64,000 nucleotides of DNA from assembly GCF_009914755.1 (NCBI RefSeq), contig NC_060925.1; one strand, 5' to 3'. Each line of letters starts with the position of its first letter. Position 1 is the stretch's first letter. Below, one piece after another: positions 1,091-60,053 of this stretch. Made by a program: the position numbers and the translations under genes. This stretch comes from the human T2T-CHM13v2.0 reference genome, Homo sapiens. The notes below the pieces were generated by a model. The model was not told the origin of the DNA and made no database searches. It saw only the letters and a list, made by a program, of their open reading frames with translations.

Positions 1091-2000
1091 GGGAGTATCA
1101 CAAGACACTTTGGGGTGTGACATCTCCCTTTCCTCCTATCTTGTCCGGGCGGGAAAGCCGGCTTCCTCTGTGGCATCCCCGGTCCCCCTCCCCCAGCACC
1201 TCCCCGCTCCTCAGCTCCTCACTAAACCTGCCTTCAAGCAAGGATGGGAAGGAGAGCGGCAGGAAAGCGCCCTGGCTGCTGCCTCCCCTTGGGGCACAAA
1301 AAGCACTGCCCCTCCGGGAAGGGGCGAGAGGGAGCAATCCAGGCGGAGGATGAAGGCAGGTAAATCTCAGGTGGAAATTTAGGTAGCAGTTGACAGGAGA
1401 GCCGGAAGTACTCACTGAATTGTGTTCCTGGCAAGGAAAAGGGCTCTGTTAACTGTGGAGTGCTGGACCAATACAAGCCATTATTATTGTTATGCCTTTT
1501 GTCTGTTTAATCCTCAGAATAATACAGTAAAGTGGGAGTGGCCACTGCACTCATTTAGAAAGGAAGAAACTAAGTGTCAGAATAGCAGCGGGCAGCTGGC
1601 ACTTGGTTCCTCCAGGGCACCTTAGCACCTGTATCCCTGTTGACACCTCTCCCCAGTGAAGCCCCACCTGGCCTCATTCAGGAGGCCTGGCAGGGCCGGG
1701 GAGCTCGGCGCCCTGCCCAGTACCACAGTGCTGTGGTGGCCCAGAGTGTGCCACTGCCTCCAGTTCCCTACGCCAGACAGGCCAAGTCCCGCCTGTGCAG
1801 AATGAAGATCGAACCTTACGAATGTCACTCGTCATGAGGCAGTGGCTCCCCTTGGACTGCTTCCTGCCTGAGTTCTTGAAAAGCAATTCACTGTGTGTCA
1901 AGTGACCACAGGAGATACGCAGAAGGCCCTGCCCTGAGCTGCCCTGGGCATCTGGCTCAGACGGTGGGACAAGGTGCAGCCTTCCATTAAAGCTGGGGAG

Positions 2001-2314
2001 GGCCAGGCGCGGTGGCTCATGCCTGCATTCCCAGCACTTTGAGAAGCCGAGGCAGGTGGATCACCTGAGGTCAGCAGTTCGAGACCAACCTGGCCAACAT
2101 GGTGAAACCTCTATCTCTACTAAAAATACAAAAATTAGCCAGATGTGGTGGTGCGTGCCTGTAATCCCAGCTACCAGGGAGGCTGAAGTGGAAGAATTCC
2201 TTGAAGTGGGAGGCAGAGTTTGCAGTGAGCCAAGATCATGCCACTGCACTCCAGCCTGGGCGACAGAGTGAGACTTTGTCTCAAAAAAAAAAAAAAAAAA
2301 AAAAAAACAAAAAA
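2001..2314 (+). mobile_element. Full-length Alu (AluS-type)
   Basis: ggccaggcgcggtggctca start, A-rich linker ctactaaaaatacaaaaattag, poly-A tail. Confidence 0.97.
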
Positions 2315-2999
2315 CTGCTGGGAAGGAATGCTGCCCACGGGCTGGGCTAGCCTAGACCCTGAGACCCTGAGCAGCTCTACAGCCTGGAAGGACCCAGCAC
2401 TCAGTCCCCAGTCCCCAGCACCCCTTGCAGTCAGGGCATCCTTCCCCAGGTGCCTCGGCTCTAGTGGCCGAGTCCAGAGCCCTGCTTCCAACACTCCTCA
2501 GGGCCATCTCTGTCCCTAACAGTACACCGTGCTGTGTGCAGCTCAGGGGATACGAGGGTGGGCCTGGTCCTAGTGACCTTGAGTGCCAAGTTAAGGGTTT
2601 CAGACTGGATGTGGCAGAACAAGGCAGGAGGCAGGCAGGATTTAGGTAGGCCTGCTGAGGGTCTAAATAGGTTTGGGAAGGATTTAAGGAAATTCTTAGC
2701 TTCTCTAGTGTGGATGAGCAATGGGTTACTGAGGGGAGCAGGAAATGTTACCTTTGAGGCTGACATCAGGGAGACCAAATTTGAGCCCTCTCAAATCCCT
2801 GCCTTGATGTTTTCTGTGCCATAAATAGGATCTATTCAAACATCCTTCCACCTATTCATTCCACCCATCCATCCACCCACCCACCACATACAGAGTCTAT
2901 CCTCTGTGTTCAGCAGGGGACTCTATGGACCTTGGCCTGAGGATGGCTTATTGAGGCCACAGAAGGCAAGTCTATCATCCTGTGTCTGGACACTACCCA

Positions 3000-3250
3000 C
3001 GATAATAACTGCTGTGTTTAAGGGCCACTGGATGCCATGAGCTGTGTTACGGGTCGCATATATATTCTCAGCACGGGCTCCCACAACGATCCCATGAAGC
3101 AGAGCTGGTAGCCCATTTACAAATGAGGGCCCTGAGGCTGAGAGAGTTTAAATGCCTCATGCAAAGTCCTGCCATTCATAAGTGGCAGGATTAGGACTTG
3201 AATCCAAGTCCATGTGACTCCAAAGTCTCTCAACTCCTTCTAATGCCTAA
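3000..3250 (-). mobile_element. MIR SINE
   Basis: cccatttacaaatgagggccctgaggctgagagagtttaaatgcc...gaatccaagtc core motif. Confidence 0.7.
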
Positions 3251-3989
3251 AATGTGATGGGGCTTTAGAGGGAAGGGGTATGGATCTGGGCACTTGTGCT
3301 TGTAGATTTGATGCGTAACATACAGGCCACGTGTCCAGTGCCTGCTCTGCCAGATTCAACCACTTGTTGAGTCCCCCTGCAGGGTTACGGGTGGGGACTC
3401 AGGGCTCCTGGTGGGTGCAGATGATCCATGAGAACCAAATCTGGAAAAAGACTCCTGGCATATTGTAGCGTGAAGTGGTTCTTCAAGTGGCCAGATTTAG
3501 TGTTCCCAGGTTGGAGAGAAGCAGACACCATGCATTAAAAATGACAGTGGGCAGTGTAAATTATCAGGCACAGTGCTTAGGTTTATGGACTTTGTCCATA
3601 ATTCTTGCTCGGTCCAGTGTGATCAGAAATGAAATACGTCCAGGCCGGGCCTGTTACTGTGTGTGGGCCTGGCGTCTTCCGGCTTATGTATCCTTCCTAA
3701 TCCACTTGGTAATTTATGGGGTCCGCCAAAAAGCCACCTGCCACAATGCCTCTTGGATTTCTTCAGCTGAGGATCATGCCTCCTCCCTTGCCATTAGGGC
3801 GCAGAAGGCAGAGACAGCAAAAGTTCTTCTGTTGAAGGTGCAGGGAGGCAGGTTGGAGCTGCACACAGTAAATTCTGGCATGACCCTTCTGTGGTCAGAT
3901 CCCTCTGAGAACAACTCAGGAGATTAACTCACAGTGACCTTCAGTGGCTCTGAGCCTGTCAGTCTCCACTCCCCCATCCAAGACTGGAC

Positions 3990-48461: not shown

Positions 48462-48573
48462 AAGACTAAAACTTATTTTGCAAATAAATTTGTCTTACTA
48501 TGATTTGTCTTTGGTAAAAACAGGGGACTGGTGAGAGAAAAATTATCTTTCAAAAGAAAATCATAGGACACAT

Positions 48574-49005
48574 TGTCAGGCCTCTGAGCCCAAGCCAAGC
48601 CATTGCATCCCCTATGACTTGCACATATACATCCAGATGGCCTGAAGTAACTGAAGATCCACAAAAGAAGTAAAAATAGCCTTAACTGATGACATTCCAC
48701 CATCGTGATTTTTTTCTGCCCCACCCTAACTGATCAATGTACTTTGTAATCTCCCCCACCCTTAAGAAGGTTCTTTGTAATTCTCCCCACCCTTGAGAAT
48801 GTACTTTGTGAGATCCACCCCTGCCCGCAAAACATTGCTCTTAACTTCACCGCCTATCCCAAAACCTGTAAGAACTAATGATAATCCACCACCCTTTGCT
48901 GACTCTCTTTTTCAGACTCAGCCCACCTGCACACAAGTGAAATAAACAGCCATGTTGCTCACACAAAGCCTGTTTGGTGGTCTCTTCACATGGACGCGCA
49001 TAAAA
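48574..49005 (+). promoter_or_regulatory. HERV-H 5' LTR (type II / LTR7B-like)
   Basis: tgtcaggcctctgagcccaagc start; tandem ctttgtaatctcccccacccttaagaagg-type U3 repeats; several CCCCACCC KLF/SP-like motifs; aataaa. Confidence 0.85.
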
Positions 49006-49007
49006 TT

Positions 49008-49025
49008 TGGTGCCATGACTCGGAT
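49008..49025 (+). other. Primer-binding site complementary to tRNA-His
   Basis: tggtgccatgactcggat versus canonical TGGTGCCGTGACTCGGAT (1 mismatch). Confidence 0.93.
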
Positions 49026-52000
49026 TGGCGGACCTCCCTTGGGAGATCAATCCCCTGTCCTCCTGTTCTTTGCTCCATGAAAAAGATCCACCTATGACCT
49101 CAGGTCCTCAGACCCACCAGCCCAAGGAACATCTCACCAATTTTAAATCCGGTAAGCGGCCTCTTCTTACTCTCTTCTCCAACCTCTCTCACTATCCCTC
49201 AACCACTTTCTCCTTTCCACTCTTCAATCTCTCCCTTCTCTTAATTTCAATTGCTTTCATTTTCTGGCGGAGACAAAGGAGACACGTTTTATCCATGGAC
49301 CCAAAACTCCGGCGCCAGTCACAGACTAGGAAGGCAGCCTTCCCTTGGTGTTTAATCATTGCAGGGACGCCTCTCTGATTATTTACCCACGTTTCAGAGG
49401 TGTCAGACCACGCAGGGACACCTGCCTTGGTCCTTCACCCTTAGCGGCAAGTCCCGCTTTTCTGGGGGAGGGGCAAGTATCCGAACCCCTTCTCTCCGTG
49501 TCTCTACCCCTTCTCTGCGTTTCTGGGGGAGGGGCAAGTACCCCTCAACCCCTTCTCCTTCATCCTTAGCAGCAAGTCCCGCTTTTCTAGGGGGCAAGAA
49601 CCCCCAATCCCTTATTTCCGCACCCTGACCTCTTATCTCTGTGCCCCAATCCCTTATTTCCACACCCTGACCCCTTTCCCGCTTTTCTGGAGGGTAAGAA
49701 CCCCCGAACCCCTTCCCTCCATGTCTCTACTCTCTCTTTTCTCTGGGCTTGCCAACTTCACTATGGGCAACCTTCCACCCTCCATTCCTCCTTCTTCTCC
49801 CTTAGCCTGTGTTCTTAAGAACTTAAAACCTCTTCAACTCACACTGACCTAAAACCTCAACGCCTTATTTTCTTCTGCAACACCACTTGGCCCCAATACA
49901 AACTTGACAATGGCTCTAAATGGCCAGAAAACGGCACTTTTGATTTCTCCACCCTACAAGACCTAAATAATTTTTGTCGAAAAATGGCCAAATGGTCTGA
50001 GGTGCCTTACATCCAGGCATTTTTCACACTTCATTCCCTCCCAAGTCTCTGTTCCCAATGTGATTCCTCCCAAATCCTCCTTCTTTCCCTCCCGCCTGTC
50101 CCCTCAGTCCCAACCCCAAGCGTCGCTGAGTCTTTCCAGTCTTCCTTTTCTACAGACCCATCTGATCTTTCCCCTCCTCCCCAGGCTGCTCATCGCCAGG
50201 CCGAGCTAGGTCCCAATTCTTCCTCAGCCTCCGCTCCTCCACCCTATAATCCTTTTATCACCTCCCCTCCTCACACCCGATCTGGCTCACAGTTTCGTTC
50301 CGTGACTGGCCCTCCCCCACCTGCCCAGCAATTTACTCTTAAAAAGGTGGCTGGAGCTAAAGGCATAGTCAAGGTTAATGCTCCTTTTTCTTTATCCCAA
50401 ATCAGATAGCGTTTAGGCTCTTTTTCGTCAAATATAAAAACCCAGCCCAGTTCATGACTCGTTTGGCAGCAACCCTGAGACACTTTACAGCCCTAGACCC
50501 TAAAAAGTCAAAAGGCCGTCTTATTCTCAATACTCATTTTTTACCCAATCTGCTCCCGACATTAAATAAAACTCCAAAAATTAAATTCCGGCCCTCAAAC
50601 CCCACAACAGGACTTAATTAACCTCGCCTTCAAGGTGTACAATAATAGAGTAGAGGCAGCCAAGTAGCAACATATTTCTGAGTTGCAATTCCTTGCCTCC
50701 ACTGTGAGACAAACCCCAGCCACATCTCCAGCACACAAGAACTTCCAAACGCCTAAACCGCAGTGGCCAGGCGTTCCTCTAGAACCTCCTCCCCCAGGAG
50801 TTTGCTACAAGTGCCAGAAATCTGGCCACTGAGCCAAGGAATGCCCACAGCCCAGGATTCCTCCTAAGCCGCGTCCCATCTGTGTGGGACCCCACTGAAA
50901 ATCGGACTGTTCAACTCACCTGACAGCCACTCCCAGAGCTCCTGGAACTCTGGCCCAAGGCTCTCTGACTGACTCCTTCCCAGATCTTCTCAGCTTAACA
51001 GCTGAAGACTGACACTGCCCGATCGCCTCGGAAGCCCTGTAGACCATCACGGACGCCGAGCTTTAGGTAACTCTCACAGTGGAGGATAAGTCCGTCCTCT
51101 TCTTAATATGGAGGCTACCCACTCCACATTACCTTATTTTTAAGGGCCTGTTTCCCTTGCCTCCATAGCTGTTGTGCGTATTGACAGCCAGGCTTCTAAA
51201 CCTCTTAAAACTCCCCAACTCTAGTGACAACTTAGACAATACTCCTTTATGCAATCCCTTTTAGTTATCCCCACCTGCCCAGTTCCCTTATTAGGCCGAG
51301 ACACTTTAACTAAATTATCTGCTTCCCTGACTATTCCTGGATTACAGCTACATCTCATTGCCACCCTTCTTTCCAATCCAAAGCCTCCTTTGCATCCTCC
51401 TCTTGTATCCCCCCACCTTAACCCACAAGTATAAGATACCTCTACTCCCTCCTTGGTGACCGATCATGCACCCCTTACCATCTCATTAAAACCTAATCAC
51501 CCTTACCCCACTAAACGCCAATATCCCATCCCACAGCATGCTTTGAAAGGATTAAAGCCTGTTATCACTCGCCTGCTACAGCATGGCCTTTAAAAGCCTA
51601 TAAACTCTCCTTACAATTCCCCCATTTTACCTGTCCTAAAACCAGACAAGCCTTACAAGTTAGTTCAGGATCTATGCCTTATCAACCAAATTGTTTTGCC
51701 TATCCACCCTGTGGTGCCAAACCCATTTACTCTCCTATCCTCAATACCTCCCTCCACAACCCATTATTCTGTTCTGGATCTCAAACATGCTTTCTTTACT
51801 ATTCCTTTGCACCCGTCATCCCAGCCTCTCTTCGCTTTCACTCGGACTGACCCTGACACCCATTAGGCTCAGCAAATTACCTAGGCTGTACTGCCTCAAG
51901 GCTTCACAGACATCCCCCATTACTTCAGTCAAGCCCAAATTTCATCCTCATCTGTTACCTATCTCGGCATAACTCTCATAAAAATACACATGCTCTCTCT

Positions 52001-53837
52001 GCTGATCGTGTCTGATTAATCTCCGAAACCTCAATCCCTTACAAAACAACAACTCCTTTCCTTCCTAGGCATGGTTAGTGCAGTCAGAATTCTTACCCAA
52101 GAGCCAGGACCGCCCCCTGTAGCCTTTCTGTCCAAACAACTTGACTTTACTGTTTTAGCCTAGCCCTCATGTCTGCGTGCAGCGGCTGCCACTGCTTTAA
52201 TACTTTTAGAGGCCCTAAAAATCACAAACTATGCTCAACTCACTCTCTACATTTCTCATAACTTCCAAAATTATTTTCTTCCTCATACCTGATGCATATA
52301 CTTTCTGCTCCCCCGCTCCTTCAGCTGTACTCACTCTTTGTTAACTCCCACAATTACCATTGTTCCTGGCCCGGACCTCAATCTGGCCTCCCACATTATT
52401 CCTGATACCACACCTGACCCCCATGACTGTATCTCTCCGATCCACCTGACATTCACCCCATTTCCCCATATTTCCTTTTTTCCTGTTCCTCACCCTGATC
52501 ATGCTTGATTTATTGATGGCAGTTCCACCAGGCCTAATCGCCACACACCAGCAAAGGCAGGCTATGCTATAGTACAAGCCACTAGCCCGCCTCTTAGAAC
52601 CTCTCATTTCCTTTCCATCGTGGAAATCTATCCTCAAAGAAATAACTTCTCAGTGTTCCATCTGCTATTCTACTACTCCTCAGGGATTATTCAGGCCCCC
52701 TCCCTTCCCTACACATCAAACTTGAAGATTTGCCCCCACCCAGGACTGGCAAATTAGCTTTACTCAACATGCCCGAGTCAGATAACTAAAAAACCTCTTA
52801 GTCTAAGTAGACACTTTCACTAGATAAGTAGAGGCCTTTCCTACAGGGTCTGAGAAGGCCACCGCAGTCATTTCTTCCCTTCTGTCAGACACAATTCCTC
52901 AGGTTAGCCTTCCCACCTCTATACAGTCTGATAACAGACCAGCCTTTATTAGTCAAATCAGCCAAGCATTTTTTCAGGCTCTTAGTATTCAGTGAAACCT
53001 TTATATCCCTTACGGTCCTCCGTCTTCAAGAAAAGTAGAACAGACTAATGGTCTTTTAAAAACACACCTCACCAAGCTCAGCCACCAACTTACAAAGGAC
53101 TGGACAATACTTTTACCACTTTCCCTTCTCAGAAGTCAGACCTGTCCTCAGAATGCTACAAGGTACAGCCCATTGAAGCTCCTGTGTAGACGCTCCTTTT
53201 TATTAGGCCCCAGTCTTATTCCAGACACCAGACCAACTTAGACTGTGCCCCCCCCCAAAAAAAAACTTGTCATCCCTACTATCTTCTTTCTAGTCATACT
53301 CCTATTCACCGTTCTCAACTACTCATACATGCCCTGCTCTTGTTTACACTGCCGGTTTACACTGTTTCTCCAAGCCATCACAGCTGATATCTCCTGGTGC
53401 TATCCCCAAACTGCCACTCTTAACTCTTGAAGTAAATAAATAATCTTTGCTGGCAGGACTATGCTGAATCTCCTTAGGCACTCTCTAATCAGATGCCCTA
53501 GGTTCTCCCAATTCTTAGACCTTTTATACCTGTTTTTCTCCTTCTCTTATTCCATTTAGTTTTTCAATTCATACAAAACCGTATCCAGGCCATCACCAAT
53601 CATTCTATACAACAAATGTTTCTTCTAACATCCCCACAATATCACCCCTTACCACAAGATCTCCCTTCAGCTTAATCTCTCCCATTCTAGGTTCCCACGC
53701 CGCCCCTAATCCCGCTTGAAGCAGCCCTGAGAAACATCGCCCATTCTCTCTCCATACCACCCCACAAAAATTTTCGCCGCCCCAACACTTTACCACTATT
53801 TTGTTTTATTTTTCTTATTAATATAAGAAGACAGGAA

Positions 53838-54269
53838 TGTCAGGCCTCTGAGCCCAAGCCATGCCATCGCATCCCCTATGACTTGCACGTATACATCCAG
53901 ATGGGCTGAAGTAACTGAAGATCCACAAAAGAAGTAAAAATAGCCTTAACTGATGACATTCCACCATTGTGATTTGTTTATGCCCCACCCTAACTGATCA
54001 ATGTACTTTGTAATCTCCCCCACCCTTAAGAAGGTTCTTTGTAATTCTCCCCACCCTTGAGAATGTACTTTGTGAGATCCACCCCTGCCCGCAAAACATT
54101 GCTCTTAACTTCACCACCTATCCCAAAACCTATAAGAACTAATGATAATCCACCACACTTTGCTGACTCTCTTTTTCGGACTCAGCCTGCCTGCACCCAG
54201 GTGAAATAAACAGCCACGTTGCTCACACAAAGCCTGTTTGGTGGTCTCTTCACATAGACACGCATGAAA
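53838..54269 (+). promoter_or_regulatory. HERV-H 3' LTR (type II / LTR7B-like)
   Basis: About 19 mismatches versus the 5' LTR by hand count; preceded by PPT. Confidence 0.9.
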
Positions 54270-54974
54270 CACATATTATTAGATTCTAGCTTTGTCCATT
54301 GTTCTTGAGTTTTTATTATTTTCCTGTAATTTGGACTGAATTCTGAATTCCTTCCTGGCTATATGTCTCCAAACTAACATTTTCAAATTTTTTTTTCCAT
54401 TTTTCTGACTTGGAATCATTAGAAATCATTGAAACTGTGCTTTTCTTAAGGCCCTGCAAACTGAAGCTAGACAACTTAAACTTCAGGAGAAATCAAAGCA
54501 ACTTACATATAAACAGATTTCATGCTTGCTGAAGTATGGACTACTGAAAAAGTTCACTTAAACACCTGATTCGAACTACAATCCGAAGTTGCCACTGCAA
54601 TCTGAAGATGTTTCAGAGACTCTTGAAAAGCTTGTCTATAGACTATTCCAGGCATTAACCTTTGTTTTTCTTCGGTTTCCATAGAAATGCCTCGTATTAA
54701 AGATGTTTGCCAGCAACATACAGACAGAGCCAATCTGCAATGCCACCTCCTGGAATAGGTCACAACTGTTTAACCAAACTGATATATTCTCAGGGCTGAG
54801 ACTGATTCAAGAAGATATAGAACGATACACTTAAATTTGCTCTTTTCTGTTTATCCCAATTTGTTTTTCTACTCCTTTGTCCATCTGTACCTAAAACTTC
54901 TAAGCCAAATCTCTCCAAAGCTATTGGCTTAGCTTTTAATATGTGAATTTTTTTTAAGGTTTCAACGTGGGGAC

Positions 54975-56383: not shown

Positions 56384-56592
56384 AGCAAAAGTGCTGCATT
56401 TATGATCAGTCCCTTCAAGTTAGAACTGAGGCACTGACCTGGTGAGCAAATGACTTAAATATTAAATTAAATATTGACTATTTTGCAGTTTATTTCTAGA
56501 CAATTTTGCCATAGGTTTTCCACAATTGAGACACACTGCAAACTCCTCATTGGTACAAAATGAGGAAAGCTTTACAGTACATATAAATAGAA

Positions 56593-56831
56593 TTTTTTTT
56601 TTTGAGATGGGGGATCCTCCCACGTCAGCCACCTCAGCCTTCTGAGTAACTGGGACTACAGCCGTGCACCACGATGCCTGGCTAATTTTTTTTTTTTTTT
56701 TTTTTTTTTTTGGTAGAGACAGGGTTTTGCCATGTTGCCCAAGATGGTCTCAAACTCCTGGGCTCCAGTGATCTATCTGCCTCAGGCTTGCAAAGTGCAG
56801 GGATTACAAGCCGGCACCACTGCACCCAGCC
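56593..56831 (-). mobile_element. AluJ-type with internal deletion and expanded middle poly-T
   Basis: Antisense Alu motifs. Confidence 0.88.
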
Positions 56832-57035
56832 TGAAATTTTTTTAAGAAATAATTTCAAGGTACTATAAAAAACAATTTAAGAAAATGATAGTCATTGGTT
56901 CTATCAAGGTGCTGAGCTGGAGTAATGAAGAACATGTGGACTTTGATTCAGACTATATCACTCATTAGCTACATGACTTTGAGCAAGTTATCTAGCATCT
57001 GAGTCTTAGTTTTATAGAGAAACAAGAATTGTGAT

Positions 57036-59415
57036 TGTCAAGCGTGTCCATGTGAAGAGAGTCCACAACAGGCTTTGTGTGAACAATAAAGCTTTTTAAT
57101 CACCAGGGTGCAGGCGGGCTGACTCCTTTTTCAGACTCAGCCCACCTGCACCAGGTGATTAAAAAGCTTTATTGCTCACACAAATCCTGTTGGTGGACTC
57201 TCTTCACACGGATGCACTTGACATTTTGTGCTGAAGACCCAGGACAGGAGGACTCCTTCGAGAGACCAGTCCCCCATCCTTGCCCTCACTCGGTGAGGAG
57301 ATCTACCTATGACCTCAGGTCCTCAGACCAACCAGCCCAAGGAACATCTCACCAATTTCAGATCGGGTAAGCGGTCGTTTCACTCCCTTCTCCAACCTCT
57401 CTCACTATCCCTCCACCCTTCAATCTCTCCCTTCCTTAATTTTGGTTCCTTTTCCCCTTTCTGGTAGAGACAGAGGAGATGCATTTTATCTGTGAACTCA
57501 AAACTCCAGCGCTGGTCACAGACTCGGGAAGACAGTCTTCCCTTGGTGTTTAATCACTGCGGGGACGCCTGCCTGATTATTCACCCACATTTCAGAGGTG
57601 TCTGATCACCATGGGGATGCCTGCCTTGATCCTTCACCTTGGTGGCAAGTACCACCCCCCGCCCTCTGTGTCTCTACCCTCTCTTTTCTCTAAACTTACC
57701 CTTTTACTATGGGCAACCTTCTGCCCTCCATTCCTCCTTCTTCTCCCTTGGCCTTTGTTCTAAAAAACTTAAAACCTCTTCAACTCCCACCTGATCTAAA
57801 ACCTAAGCGTCTTATTTTCTTCTGCAACACTGCTTGGCCCCAATACAAACTTGGTAATGGCTCCACATAGTCAGAAAATGGCACTTTCGATTTTCTCCAT
57901 CCTACAAGATCTAGATAATTTTTTTCAAAAAATGGGCAAATGGTCTGAGGTGCCTGATATCCAGGCATTCTTTTATACATTGGTCCCTCCCTAGTCTCTG
58001 CTCCCAATGTGACTGTCCCAAATCTTTCTTGTTTTTCTCCCGTCTGTTCCTTCAGTCTCCACCCCAAGCTCTGAGTCCTTTGAATCTTCCTTTTCTACAG
58101 ACCCACCTAACCTCTCCCCTCCACCCCAGGCTGCTCCTCGCCAGGCCGAGCCAGGTCCCAATTCTTCCTCAGCCTCCACTCCCCCACCCTGTAATCCTTC
58201 TATCACCTCCCCTCCTCATACCCAGTCTGGCTTACAATTTTGTTCCACAACTTGCCCTCCCCCACCTGCCCAACAATTTCCTCTTAGAGAAGTGGCTGGA
58301 GCTGAAGGCATAGTCAAGGTTAATGCTCCTTTTTCTTTAGCCAACCTCTCCCAAATCAGTTAGCGTTTAGGCTCTTTTTCATCAAGTATAAAAACCCAGC
58401 CCAGTTCATGGCCCATTTGGCAACAACCCTTAGACGCTTTACTGCCCTAGACACAGAGGGGCCAGAAGGCCGTCTTATTCTCAATATGCATTTTATTACC
58501 CAATCCACTCCTGACATTAGAAAAAGCTCCAAAAATTAAGATTCTGGCCCTCAAACCCCACAACAGGACTTAATTAACCTCGCCTTCAAGGTGTACAATA
58601 ATAGAGGCAGCCAAGTGGCCACGTATTTCTGAGTTGCAATTCCTTGCCTCCACTGTAAGACAAACCCCAGCCACATTTCCAGCACACAAGAACTTCAAAA
58701 ACCTAAACCATAGCAGCCAGGCATTCCTCCAGGACCTCCTCCCCCAGGATCTTGCTTCAAGTGCCAGAAATCTGGCCACTGGGCCAAGGAATGCCCGCAG
58801 CCCAGGATTCCTCCTAAGATGTGTCCCATCTGTGTGGGACCCCACTGGAAATTGGACTGTCCAGCTCTCCCAGCAGCCACTCCCACAGCCCCTGGAACTG
58901 TGGCCTAAGGCTCTCTGACTCCTTTCCAGATCTTCTCAGCTTAGCGGCTGAAGACTGACGCTGCCCGATTGATTGCCTGGGAAGCCTCCTGGACCATCAC
59001 AGACGCCTTGGGTAACTCTTACAGTGGAGGACAGGAATGTCAGGCCGGCCTCTGAGCCCAAGCATGCATGTATACATCCAGATGGCCTGAGGCAACTGAA
59101 GAACCACAAAAGAAGTGAAAATGGCTAGTTCCTGCCTTAACTGATGACATTACCTTGTGACATTCCTTCTCCGGGACAGTGAGTCTCCGGAGCTCCCCAC
59201 TGAGCACCTTGTGACCCCCGCCCCTGCCCGCAAGAGAACAACCCCCTTTAACTGTAATTTTCCACCACCTACCCAAATCCTAAAAAACGGCCCCACTCCT
59301 ATCTCCCTTTGCTGACTCCTTTTTCGGACTCAGCCAACCTGCACCCAGGTGATTAAAAAGCTTTATTTCTCACCCAAAGCCTGTTGGTGGTCTCTTCACA
59401 CGGATGCGCATGACA
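57036..59415 (+). mobile_element. Rearranged HERV-H-group element: inverted R-U5 + R-U5 + PBS + leader/gag + splice-like junction + complete 3' LTR7
   Basis: Colinear with the neighbouring provirus 5' region; TGTCA...TGACA ends; perfect TSD GTGAT; flanking MIR resumes on both sides. Confidence 0.93.
59038..59415 (+). promoter_or_regulatory. HERV-H 3' LTR (older type I LTR7-like)
   Basis: ttcctgccttaactgatgacattaccttgtga; cactgagcaccttgtgacccc; attaaa poly(A) variant; ends gcgcatgaca. Confidence 0.85.
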
Positions 59416-59526
59416 GTGATTATATGAGAAAATGAATATGAAATGCCTAACAATACTATATGTATACTATGGCTTTTATTATTCTAATAAGATATGGATG
59501 ATTTCACAGAGAATGCCAATTATAGG

Positions 59527-60053
59527 TGTGAGGGAAGAATAACCCCCATAGGTTCTTAGTTGGAGTTAACCTGTTACAAAAGACAAATTAACAAGAGAAA
59601 AAGAAAAGCTTCTTAACATGTATATTTCACATATACATGAGAATAGAGAATGAGTAGTTCTCAAAGAGGTGGCTTTGAATTTCAGTTTATATAGCATCTT
59701 CAACAAAGAACAGCAGGACGGGCATGGTGGCTCACGTCTGTAATCCCAGCACTTTGGGAGGTCAAGATGAGCAGATCACTTGAGCCTAGGAGTTCGAGAC
59801 CAGCCTGGGGAACATGGGAACATGCAAAAACCCCATCTCCACCAACACACACACACACGGAAAAACCCCATCTCCAACCCCTCCCCGCAACACACAACGC
59901 TAGCTGTGCATGGTGGTATGTGTCTATAGTCCCAGCTACTCAGGAGGCTGAGGCGGGCTCAGGCTCAATCACCTGAGACCAGGGAGGTCAAAGTTGCAGT
60001 AAGCTGTGATTGCACCACTGCATTCCCACCTGGGTGACAGAGACCCTGTCTCA

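What the first reader, a model, noticed from the sequence alone, without database searches (positions are those of the whole stretch)
57031..59420. HERV-H element apparently integrated with two U5 ends: a fold-back inverted R-U5 replaces the 5' U3
Seen: there is no 5' U3. 57036-57122 is the reverse complement of the adjacent R-U5 (57137-57223), forming an ~87-bp stem with a 14-nt loop. The join falls in the natural R hairpin GCTGA-ctcctttttcagac-TCAGC. The element thus has inverted termini (TGTCA...TGACA), is flanked by a perfect 5-bp TSD (GTGAT at 57031-57035 and 59416-59420), and the interrupted MIR continues on both sides. Established: retroviral integrase joins CA-ended att sites and HERV-H makes 5-bp TSDs; minus-strand DNA can self-prime on R hairpins. 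Inference: the inversion arose during reverse transcription, and integrase used a U5/U5 substrate. This would be a fossil of a non-canonical replication route giving an LTR element with transposon-like inverted termini.
Basis: partly seen in the sequence, partly recalled or inferred. Interest (0 to 1): 0.85.

Follow-up and report, generated by a model that had tools for sequence, protein, structure and literature searches.

The report
Fold-back HERV-H provirus with two U5 ends
An ancient HERV-H retrovirus copy has an upside-down copy of its own R-U5 segment where its left promoter region should be, apparently a reverse-transcription accident that was still inserted into the genome, and two more such fossils exist elsewhere.

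Summary
Window 57036-59415 is a 2.38-kb defective HERV-H.
- **Structure:** the 5' U3 is absent. In its place is an inverted R-U5 (57036-57122), joined to the normal R-U5 (57137-57223) exactly at the hairpin that starts R.
- **Ends:** both termini are U5 ends, flanked by a perfect 5-bp duplication, GTGAT.
- **Age:** the three R-U5 copies differ from each other about equally, so the fold-back is as old as the insertion.

Genome-wide junction searches found only two more loci with the same join, on chr2 (157.79 Mb) and chr3 (90.15 Mb). Their flanks differ, and their LTR7 subtype differs from the window's. The chr3 element has a perfect TSD (TTCTC); the chr2 element has a 4/5 match. The other 49 of 52 candidate sites were ordinary LTR7 copies.

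[quoted passage not shown] Integrase then inserted a molecule with two tRNA-defined U5 ends.

Still open: whether priming was in cis or in trans, the odd loop orientation in the window, and MIR continuity across the insertion site. No report of such elements turned up in six searches of the held literature. I rate it a new variant of a known kind, of moderate to high specialist interest.

The parts
57031..57035 (.). Left copy of the 5-bp target-site duplication, GTGAT
57036..57117 (-). Outer arm: inverted U5-R. It starts TGTCA, the reverse complement of the U5 terminus TGACA
   Evidence: 8 mismatches in 81 positions plus 2 gaps against the inner arm
57118..57141 (+). R-start hairpin and palindrome centre: stem GCTGA (57118-57122), 14-nt loop ctcctttttcagac (57123-57136), stem TCAGC (57137-57141). 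The loop has the same sense as the inner arm
   Evidence: the same hairpin lies at 59311-59334 in the 3' LTR
57137..57223 (+). Inner arm: normal R-U5 (ATTAAA signal, U5 ending TGACA)
57224..57243 (+). TT plus a decayed primer-binding-site position. It is homologous by position to the tRNA-His PBS of other copies
   Evidence: Element positions 83-1995 align contiguously to other HERV-H proviruses at 79-87% identity. Intact PBS sequences are seen in L004, L104 and the neighbouring provirus and match the published primer
57244..59025 (+). Leader and decayed gag: ATG at 57709, Gag_p30 fragment at 58324-58539, nucleocapsid zinc knuckle at 58714-58908. It ends at an internal deletion point near 59025-59030
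   Evidence: zf-CCHC E=1.4e-7; Gag_p30 E=8.5e-6, below Pfam's cut-off; all 39 scored relatives stop near element position 1995
59026..59037 (+). Polypurine-tract remnant GGAGGACAGGAA, directly before U3: the natural junction
   Evidence: 11 of 39 other scored LTR loci match from 12 nt upstream of U3; neighbour: aagaagacaggaa|tgtcagg
59038..59415 (+). Complete 3' LTR: U3 59038-59310, R-U5 59311-59415, ending TGACA
59416..59420 (.). Right copy of the 5-bp target-site duplication, GTGAT

Best explanation
The element is a defective HERV-H DNA whose left end was built from minus-strand DNA instead of by the normal plus-strand transfer.

Minus-strand strong-stop DNA (U5'-R', primed by tRNA-His) ends in the complement of the hairpin that opens R, and its last bases are self-complementary (GCTGA...TCAGC). 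That 3' end primed DNA synthesis on minus-strand DNA, either on itself or on the minus strand made from the second packaged RNA. The product was an R-U5 / U5-R fold-back centred on the hairpin.

For the window I favour mutual priming in trans. A strong-stop DNA that failed to transfer paired, through the stem, with the 3' end of a full-length minus strand that had read through PBS-U5-R to the RNA cap. Each was then extended on the other. The duplex that results has a tRNA-defined U5 terminus at both ends and needs no plus-strand transfer. Its 14-nt loop is mismatched, so it can resolve to either orientation. Integrase joined the two U5 ends to a 5-bp staggered cut.

Shown: the structure, its termini, the TSD, its age, the recurrence at two other loci, and the pairing potential of the 3' end. 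Inferred: the order of events, cis versus trans priming, and the use of two RNAs.

The element has no promoter of its own. It is a fossil, not a propagating subfamily.
For: 1. Both termini are U5 ends directly abutting a perfect GTGAT duplication. The normal HERV-H provirus 2.8 kb upstream also has a 5-bp TSD, CACAT.
2. The join lies within the 5-bp stem at the first bases of R. Passages of PMC2664473 place the HERV-H start site at 'GC/G', at the base of a conserved stem-loop just after the start site. A published R-region primer covers this hairpin (PMC3253121). A U3-less HERV-H copy begins at ..GCTGACTC (L104).
3. The modelled strong-stop DNA folds with its 3'-terminal base paired. The 35-mer gives -7.3 kcal/mol at 70% of the ensemble, and 0 of 200 shuffles fold as well. 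The hairpin is kept in the full-length 105-nt fold.
4. The three R-U5 copies form a star pattern, with private changes of 7 (outer), 3 (inner) and 6 (3' LTR). JC distances are 0.106, 0.137 and 0.079. The fold-back is therefore not younger than the integration.
5. Recurrence. Of 52 candidate junction sites fetched, 3 have long inverted arms (local arm scores 60-71, against at most 10.5 for the other 49).
   - The chr3 element has a perfect TSD, TTCTC, between a U3 end and the outer-arm U5 end. Its inner arm runs into a full tRNA-His PBS, leader and gag. Its copies are also star-like: 5, 6 and 4.
   - In the chr2 element the inner arm continues into TT plus 7 nt of PBS, as if copying the attached tRNA. 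GTAAA and GTAAT flank the outer U5 ends.
6. In the chr2 and chr3 elements the loop has the sense of the outer arm, as self-priming of strong-stop DNA predicts.
7. Self-priming of (-)ssDNA at the R hairpin is an established in vitro reaction (PMC6088434 passages; PMC4668388 passages).
Against: - In the window the loop has the sense of the inner arm, the opposite of what simple cis self-priming gives. This needs trans priming with a mismatched loop, or a later flip of the spacer. Neither was tested.
- The review passages call self-primed products dead ends and say they were not detected in endogenous reactions of HIV-1 particles.
- The chr2 element needs at least two further strand switches. Its palindrome is only about 79% identical to the adjacent LTRs, which are 93.6% identical to each other, so two separate events there cannot be excluded. 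Its TSD is only 4 of 5.
- No empty orthologous site could be examined, and the MIR-continuity proxy was inconclusive.
- The PBS of the window element is badly decayed.
Confidence: 0.8

Rival explanations
1. Same stage, different route: cis self-priming only. Strong-stop DNA folds back on itself and copies R-U5 and the tRNA. Its 3' PBS copy then replaces plus-strand strong-stop DNA in the second transfer, and integrase uses the two U5 ends. The native loop orientation in the window would then come from a later flip of the 14-nt spacer, by recombination or template switching between the initially identical arms. This is a sub-variant of the best explanation; its confidence is a share of that 0.8.
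For: It predicts exactly the loop orientation and the PBS continuation seen in the chr2 and chr3 elements. The cis hairpin is the predicted minimum-energy fold. The cis reaction is the one documented in vitro.
Against: It needs an extra, unobserved event for the window locus. No trace of a flip can be tested, because the stem is symmetric.
Confidence: 0.25
2. Post-integration rearrangement. A normal provirus integrated, and later a replication fold-back or palindrome-forming event at the R hairpin duplicated R-U5 in inverted form and deleted U3.
For: Short inverted repeats can seed fold-back inversions in genomic DNA (general knowledge, not tested here). The hairpin is present in every LTR7.
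Against: - The inverted copy would have to end exactly at the U5 terminal base and replace U3 exactly up to the TSD. This would have to happen independently in the window and on chr3 (perfect TSDs) and probably on chr2 (4/5 TSD).
- The arms are as diverged from each other as from the other LTR, so there is no sign of a later duplication.
- 49 of 52 junction candidates show no arm extension at all.
Confidence: 0.07
3. Two separate HERV-H insertions in opposite orientation, or recombination with the neighbouring provirus at 48574-54269, produced a head-to-head junction by chance.
For: A second HERV-H lies only 2.8 kb away. At the chr2 locus, sequences of two LTR7 subtypes are juxtaposed.
Against: - The neighbour is complete, with both LTRs and its own TSD, CACAT. 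It is only about 80-85% identical to this element.
- The GTGAT duplication links the outer-arm end and the 3' LTR end as one integration event; the chance of such a match is about 0.001.
- Nested insertion would leave U3 sequence and a second TSD, and neither is present.
Confidence: 0.03
4. Assembly or sequencing artefact, such as a chimeric fold-back read.
For: Palindromes are a known source of artefacts (general knowledge).
Against: Artefactual fold-backs are perfect copies. Here the arms differ at 8 of 81 positions plus 2 indels. The palindrome is only 188 bp. Two other loci in the same assembly show the same architecture with their own substitutions. Reads could not be inspected.
Confidence: 0.01

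Closest known systems
[quoted passage not shown] 1997 and later work, as summarised in PMC6088434; passages read)
   Same: The fold-back is centred on the cap-proximal R hairpin. Strong-stop DNA is extended back over R-U5. In the chr2 element the extension runs into a copy of the tRNA 3' end.
   Different: The known products are in vitro dead ends, and the review passages say they were not detected in endogenous reactions. Here the product was completed to a duplex, integrated in the germ line with a TSD, and occurs in a gammaretrovirus-like ERV with a much smaller hairpin.
Moloney MLV provirus with LTRs in inverted orientation, integrated through two U3 ends (Colicelli & Goff 1988, J Virol 62:633). 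I saw only the title, in a reference list; the paper itself is not held.
   Same: A provirus integrated with two copies of the same att end instead of U3 plus U5.
   Different: That case used U3/U3 and arose in a laboratory mutant. This one uses U5/U5, is natural and ancient, and has a fold-back R-U5 rather than a whole inverted LTR. Details of the 1988 structure are not known to me from any call.
Canonical HERV-H provirus, for example the neighbour at window 48574-54269
   Same: LTR7-type LTR, tRNA-His PBS position, gammaretroviral gag remnants, 5-bp TSD, a natural PPT-U3 junction and a complete 3' LTR.
   Different: There is no 5' U3, an inverted R-U5 takes its place, and both termini are U5.
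HIV-1 proviruses with asymmetric LTRs or internal inversions (PMC9278108; passages read)
   Same: Defective proviruses attributed to template switching between the two packaged genomes before integration.
   Different: Those have deletions in the 3' LTR or internal inversions. No R-hairpin fold-back or U5/U5 ends are described in the passages I read.
L1 5' inversion by twin priming, and foldback or TIR DNA transposons (recalled, not tested against references)
   Same: Inverted terminal sequences and a short TSD.
   Different: There is no poly(A), the TSD is the retroviral 5 bp, and there is no transposase. The arms are LTR R-U5 ending in the retroviral TG...CA.

Membership tests
HERV-H (LTR7 / HERVH-int) | LTR of LTR7 type: TGTCAGG start, R hairpin GCTGA..TCAGC, ATTAAA/AATAAA signal, U5 end | tested here: met
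   The 3' LTR at 59038-59415 matches LTR copies across the genome at 87-93% identity (39 other loci scored of 3684 candidates). The published R-region primer is the complement of the hairpin loop and right stem as seen in L004.
HERV-H (LTR7 / HERVH-int) | tRNA-His primer-binding site after the 5' U5 | tested here: inconclusive
   The window copy is decayed (57226-57243), but it aligns by position within a contiguous match to other proviruses. Intact PBS sequences in L104, L004 and the neighbour match the published primer TGGTGCCGTGACTCGGAT at 17-18 of 18 positions.
HERV-H (LTR7 / HERVH-int) | Gammaretrovirus-type gag | tested here: met
   zf-CCHC E=1.4e-7, above Pfam's cut-off. Gag_p30 E=8.5e-6, just below the cut-off. 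Many stops and frameshifts.
HERV-H (LTR7 / HERVH-int) | 5-bp target-site duplication | tested here: met
   GTGAT/GTGAT; neighbour CACAT/CACAT; chr3 TTCTC/TTCTC.
Canonical integrated provirus (U3-R-U5 ... U3-R-U5) | A complete 5' LTR with U3, giving one U3 att end and one U5 att end | tested here: not met
   No U3 lies at or upstream of the left end. Both ends are U5.
[quoted passage not shown] | The inversion point lies at the hairpin at the 5' end of R, which is the 3' end of strong-stop DNA | tested here: met
   The breakpoint lies within the 5-bp stem in all three loci. Start-site position from PMC2664473 passages and from L104.
[quoted passage not shown] | The outer arm ends at the tRNA-defined U5 terminus | tested here: met
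   The outer arm ends at TGACA or GAAA directly against the TSD in the window and on chr3, and against GTAAA on chr2.
[quoted passage not shown] | The loop has the sense of the outer arm (cis self-priming) | tested here: not met
   The window loop has the sense of the inner arm. The feature is met on chr2 and chr3. It fails for the cis model only; a trans model with a mismatched loop allows both orientations (inference).
[quoted passage not shown] | Formed before integration | tested here: met
   TSDs join the fold-back end to the other viral end. Star-like divergence of the three R-U5 copies. Direct proof from orthologues could not be obtained.
Foldback / TIR DNA transposon | Terminal inverted repeats bound by a transposase, with a family of similar copies | tested here: not met
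   The inverted termini are LTR R-U5. Only 3 loci carry the junction genome-wide, each with a different interior.

The most novel reading that the evidence does not exclude
Fold-back proviruses may be a real, recurrent and so far undescribed class of retroviral replication product. On this reading, minus-strand strong-stop DNA that primes on minus-strand DNA through the R hairpin is not a dead end. It can be completed, using only tRNA-primed strands from the two packaged genomes and no plus-strand transfer. The product is a duplex with two U5 ends that integrase inserts normally. If so, the same signature should be present in other ERV families and in long-read catalogues of present-day defective proviruses. 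That signature is head-to-head R-U5 centred on the cap-proximal hairpin, with a TSD and the loop in either orientation.
Probability: 0.45. Interest if true: 0.72.

Novelty: new variant of a known kind. Interest (0 to 1): 0.62.

Why it matters
Self-priming of strong-stop DNA has been studied for decades as an in vitro side reaction that nucleocapsid protein suppresses, and the reviews treat its products as dead ends. These three fossils suggest that such products could be finished and integrated in vivo. They also suggest that integrase accepted two U5 ends in a natural infection.

The finding gives a concrete sequence signature that can be searched for in other ERV families and in proviral long-read data. 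It is also a caution for annotation: RepeatMasker-style output would show such elements as unrelated LTR fragments in opposite orientation.

No host function is implied. The element lacks a promoter, and no function was tested.

Tried and rejected
- **Natural LTR7 variant.** I tested whether the extended stem GGGCTGA..TCAGCCC is just a natural variant. It is in 49 of 52 sites, which have no arm extension. These served as negative controls.
- **More fold-back loci.** A tolerant 14-nt-loop pattern gave the same three loci. Two further hits were fetched: one was a chance match, and one was a U3-less HERV-H that is not a fold-back. The 15-nt-loop pattern gave 0 hits. Palindrome queries from the window and from chr3 found no further double-strand matches among the 40 candidates scored each time.
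- **Limits of these searches.** The patterns need a nearly intact core, and DNA searches score only 40 of about 1900-3700 candidates. Decayed or differently joined fold-backs would be missed.
- **MIR continuity as a stand-in for the empty site.** No other MIR-like match exists inside the window. One genomic relative was found. The colinear extension across the junction was not significant.
- **The neighbouring provirus as a source of rearrangement.** Rejected.
- **A sibling copy with the same internal deletion.** One exact 31-nt hit lies on chr1 at 25.75 Mb.
- **Autointegration as the source of the chr3 U5|gag junction.** I considered this. The junction has 2-nt microhomology and lacks one terminal base, which fits template switching better. 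It is not decided.
- **Literature.** Six searches found no report of an ERV or provirus with a fold-back R-U5 or U5/U5 ends. Most subscription-journal papers are not in the library, so this is weak evidence of absence.
Full report
**What is there.** Window 57036-59415 is a 2,380-bp defective HERV-H. From left to right:
- GTGAT (57031-57035).
- An inverted U5-R (57036-57117).
- The hairpin GCTGA / ctcctttttcagac / TCAGC (57118-57141).
- A normal R-U5 (57137-57223, overlapping the right half of the stem).
- TT and a decayed PBS position.
- Leader and decayed gag.
- A polypurine remnant, GGAGGACAGGAA (59026-59037).
- A complete 3' LTR (59038-59415).
- GTGAT again (59416-59420).

The palindrome folds at -80.5 kcal/mol (z = -16.5; 0 of 200 shuffles fold as well). 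There is no U3 at or upstream of the left end. The interior carries a nucleocapsid zinc knuckle (E=1.4e-7) and a Gag_p30 fragment (E=8.5e-6, just below Pfam's cut-off) among many stops.

Thirty-nine other scored genomic loci align contiguously from the start of R to about element position 1995 and then stop. The PPT-U3 junction is the natural one. So the element also carries a large internal deletion that joins the sequence just downstream of the gag zinc knuckle (presumed protease region) to the PPT. At the deletion point an undeleted copy reads GGAGG|GTAAGT, which looks like a splice donor. Whether the template was spliced or RT jumped across a short homology is not decided.

**Family.** The LTR is of LTR7 type. 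It matches LTR copies across the genome. The published HERV-H primers, one for the tRNA-His PBS and one R-region primer that is the complement of this hairpin (PMC3253121 passages), match the intact relatives read here.

A conventional HERV-H provirus lies 2.8 kb upstream in the same window, at 48574-54269. It has both LTRs, a PBS and its own 5-bp TSD, CACAT. It is only about 80-85% identical to this element and has its own TSD, so I take it as a separate insertion and a convenient control for normal architecture.

**Is the fold-back as old as the insertion?** I aligned the outer arm, the inner arm and the R-U5 of the 3' LTR. Private changes are 7, 3 and 6, and JC distances are 0.106, 0.137 and 0.079. 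A later duplication would make the two arms much closer to each other than to the 3' LTR, and they are not. The same divergence argues against an assembly artefact, which would give perfect arms.

**Recurrence.** The host assembly could be searched. A query with the 188-nt palindrome returned two other loci that match its full length on both strands. I then listed junction candidates with four patterns, fetched 52 sites and scored arm complementarity.
- Three sites have long inverted arms, with scores of 60-71: the window, chr2:157,793,977-157,794,166 and chr3:90,149,464-90,149,650.
- The other 49 score 10.5 or less. They are ordinary LTR7 copies with point changes in the stem.
- More tolerant patterns added nothing: for 14-nt loops, the same three loci plus a chance hit and a U3-less copy; for 15-nt loops, 0 hits.
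- These searches need a nearly intact core, so three is a lower bound.

**The chr3 element** reads: TTCTC | U3-R-U5 | reverse-oriented gag, leader and full tRNA-His PBS | U5'-R' | loop | R-U5 | TTCTC.
- It is one integration event with a U3 end and a U5 end and a perfect TSD.
- The fold-back forms its right end.
- The left LTR joins gag at its U5 end, without a PBS, through 2 nt of microhomology.
- Its three R-U5 copies are again star-like: 5, 6 and 4 private changes.

**The chr2 element** reads: GTAAA | U5'-R' | loop | R-U5 | TT plus 7 nt of PBS | reverse-oriented internal sequence and a reverse 5' LTR lacking about the first 37 nt of U3 | 306 bp unassigned | forward 3' internal region and 3' LTR | GTAAT.
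- The 4/5 TSD has a chance probability of about 0.016 (my own arithmetic).
- The palindrome belongs to another LTR7 subtype than the two LTRs: about 79% identity to them, against 93.6% between them.
- This fits either a virion with two different RNAs or two separate events. I cannot decide between these.

**Mechanism.** All breakpoints that define the fold-back coincide with natural ends of reverse-transcription intermediates.
- The centre is at the first bases of R. HERV-H transcription is reported to start there, at the base of a conserved stem-loop (PMC2664473 passages). A U3-less copy also begins there.
- The outer arm ends at the U5 terminus that tRNA-primer removal defines.
- The reverse complement of R-U5, which models strong-stop DNA, folds with its last base paired. 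The 35-mer gives -7.3 kcal/mol at 70% of the ensemble.
- Self-priming of strong-stop DNA at the R hairpin is well documented in vitro, and nucleocapsid protein suppresses it (PMC6088434 and PMC4668388 passages). RT can switch templates on 2 nt of complementarity.

So the fold-back was most likely made in the capsid, and integrase joined the resulting ends.

The loop gives one more clue. On chr2 and chr3 it has the sense of the outer arm, as cis self-priming predicts. In the window it has the sense of the inner arm.

A model that covers both is mutual priming of two minus-strand 3' ends through the self-complementary stem. For the window these would be a stalled strong-stop DNA and a full minus strand that had read through to the cap of its template. 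Extending each on the other gives exactly the window's structure, with a tRNA-defined U5 end on both sides. The loop is left as a mismatch that replication resolves either way. This model is inference. A later flip of the spacer is the alternative.

**Rivals.**
- A post-integration fold-back would have to end at the U5 terminal base and remove U3 exactly to the TSD. This would have to happen in the window and on chr3 (perfect TSDs) and probably on chr2, and leave no age difference between the arms.
- Nested or neighbouring insertions are excluded by the TSD that links the two outer ends, and by the intact neighbour.

**What remains open.**
- No orthologous empty site could be examined.
The left flank is related to one other genomic copy, but extension across the junction was not significant (34 of 500 random controls did as well). 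From memory of the MIR consensus the two flanks look contiguous, but that is recall, not a test.

**Comparison with what is known.** The reaction is known in vitro, and its products are described as dead ends. An integrated MLV provirus that used two U3 ends is on record, though I saw only the title. HIV-1 proviruses with asymmetric LTRs and inversions are attributed to template switching between the two genomes. Six searches of the held library found no description of an ERV or provirus with a hairpin-centred R-U5 fold-back or U5/U5 ends. The library lacks most subscription journals.

**Verdict.** The phenomenon recurs at two further loci. I rate it a new variant of a known kind: an aberrant provirus that records a known side reaction.

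Noticed in passing
window 48574-54269: A conventional 5.7-kb HERV-H provirus, plus strand, with both LTRs, the PBS tttggtgccatgactcggat and a perfect TSD, CACAT (48569-48573 and 54270-54274). Its R hairpin has a 15-nt loop. It accounts for the large masked block in the hub's annotation. Two HERV-H insertions within 3 kb is unusual.
   Followed up: partly
L104 = G000:C2:199731107-199731507: A HERV-H copy that starts at ..gtGCTGACTC.. (the R start) with no U3, followed by R-U5 and an intact tRNA-His PBS. It could be a retrocopy of HERV-H RNA or a 5'-truncated provirus. It marks the likely RNA 5' end.
   Followed up: partly
G000:C1:25748412-25748442 (minus strand): The only other exact genomic match to the window element's 31-nt internal deletion junction (the region downstream of the gag zinc knuckle joined to PPT-U3). 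It may be a sibling copy from the same deleted or spliced template.
   Followed up: no
window 59020-59037; L002 1960-2000: At the deletion point, undeleted copies read GGAGG|GTAAGT, a good 5' splice-site match. The window joins GGAGG to ACAGGAA just before U3. The element may derive from a spliced RNA, or from an RT jump across a short homology.
   Followed up: partly
about 26 of the 50 sites listed, e.g. G000:C1:246061819-246061846: A different repeat family carries a similar hairpin, GGGCTGA-GGCCTAAAATGGCG-TCAGCCC, at many sites. It was not identified.
   Followed up: no
G000:C3:148237797-148237916: Three tandem copies, at 46-bp spacing, of a GGGCTGA..C-rich..TCAGCCC motif. This is a minisatellite-like array picked up by the junction pattern.
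   Followed up: no
window 56579-56830 and 59725-59880: Alu-like sequences (ggccgggcgcggtggctcacg-type, with poly-T or poly-A runs) flank the locus on both sides. Nothing unusual was seen.
   Followed up: no
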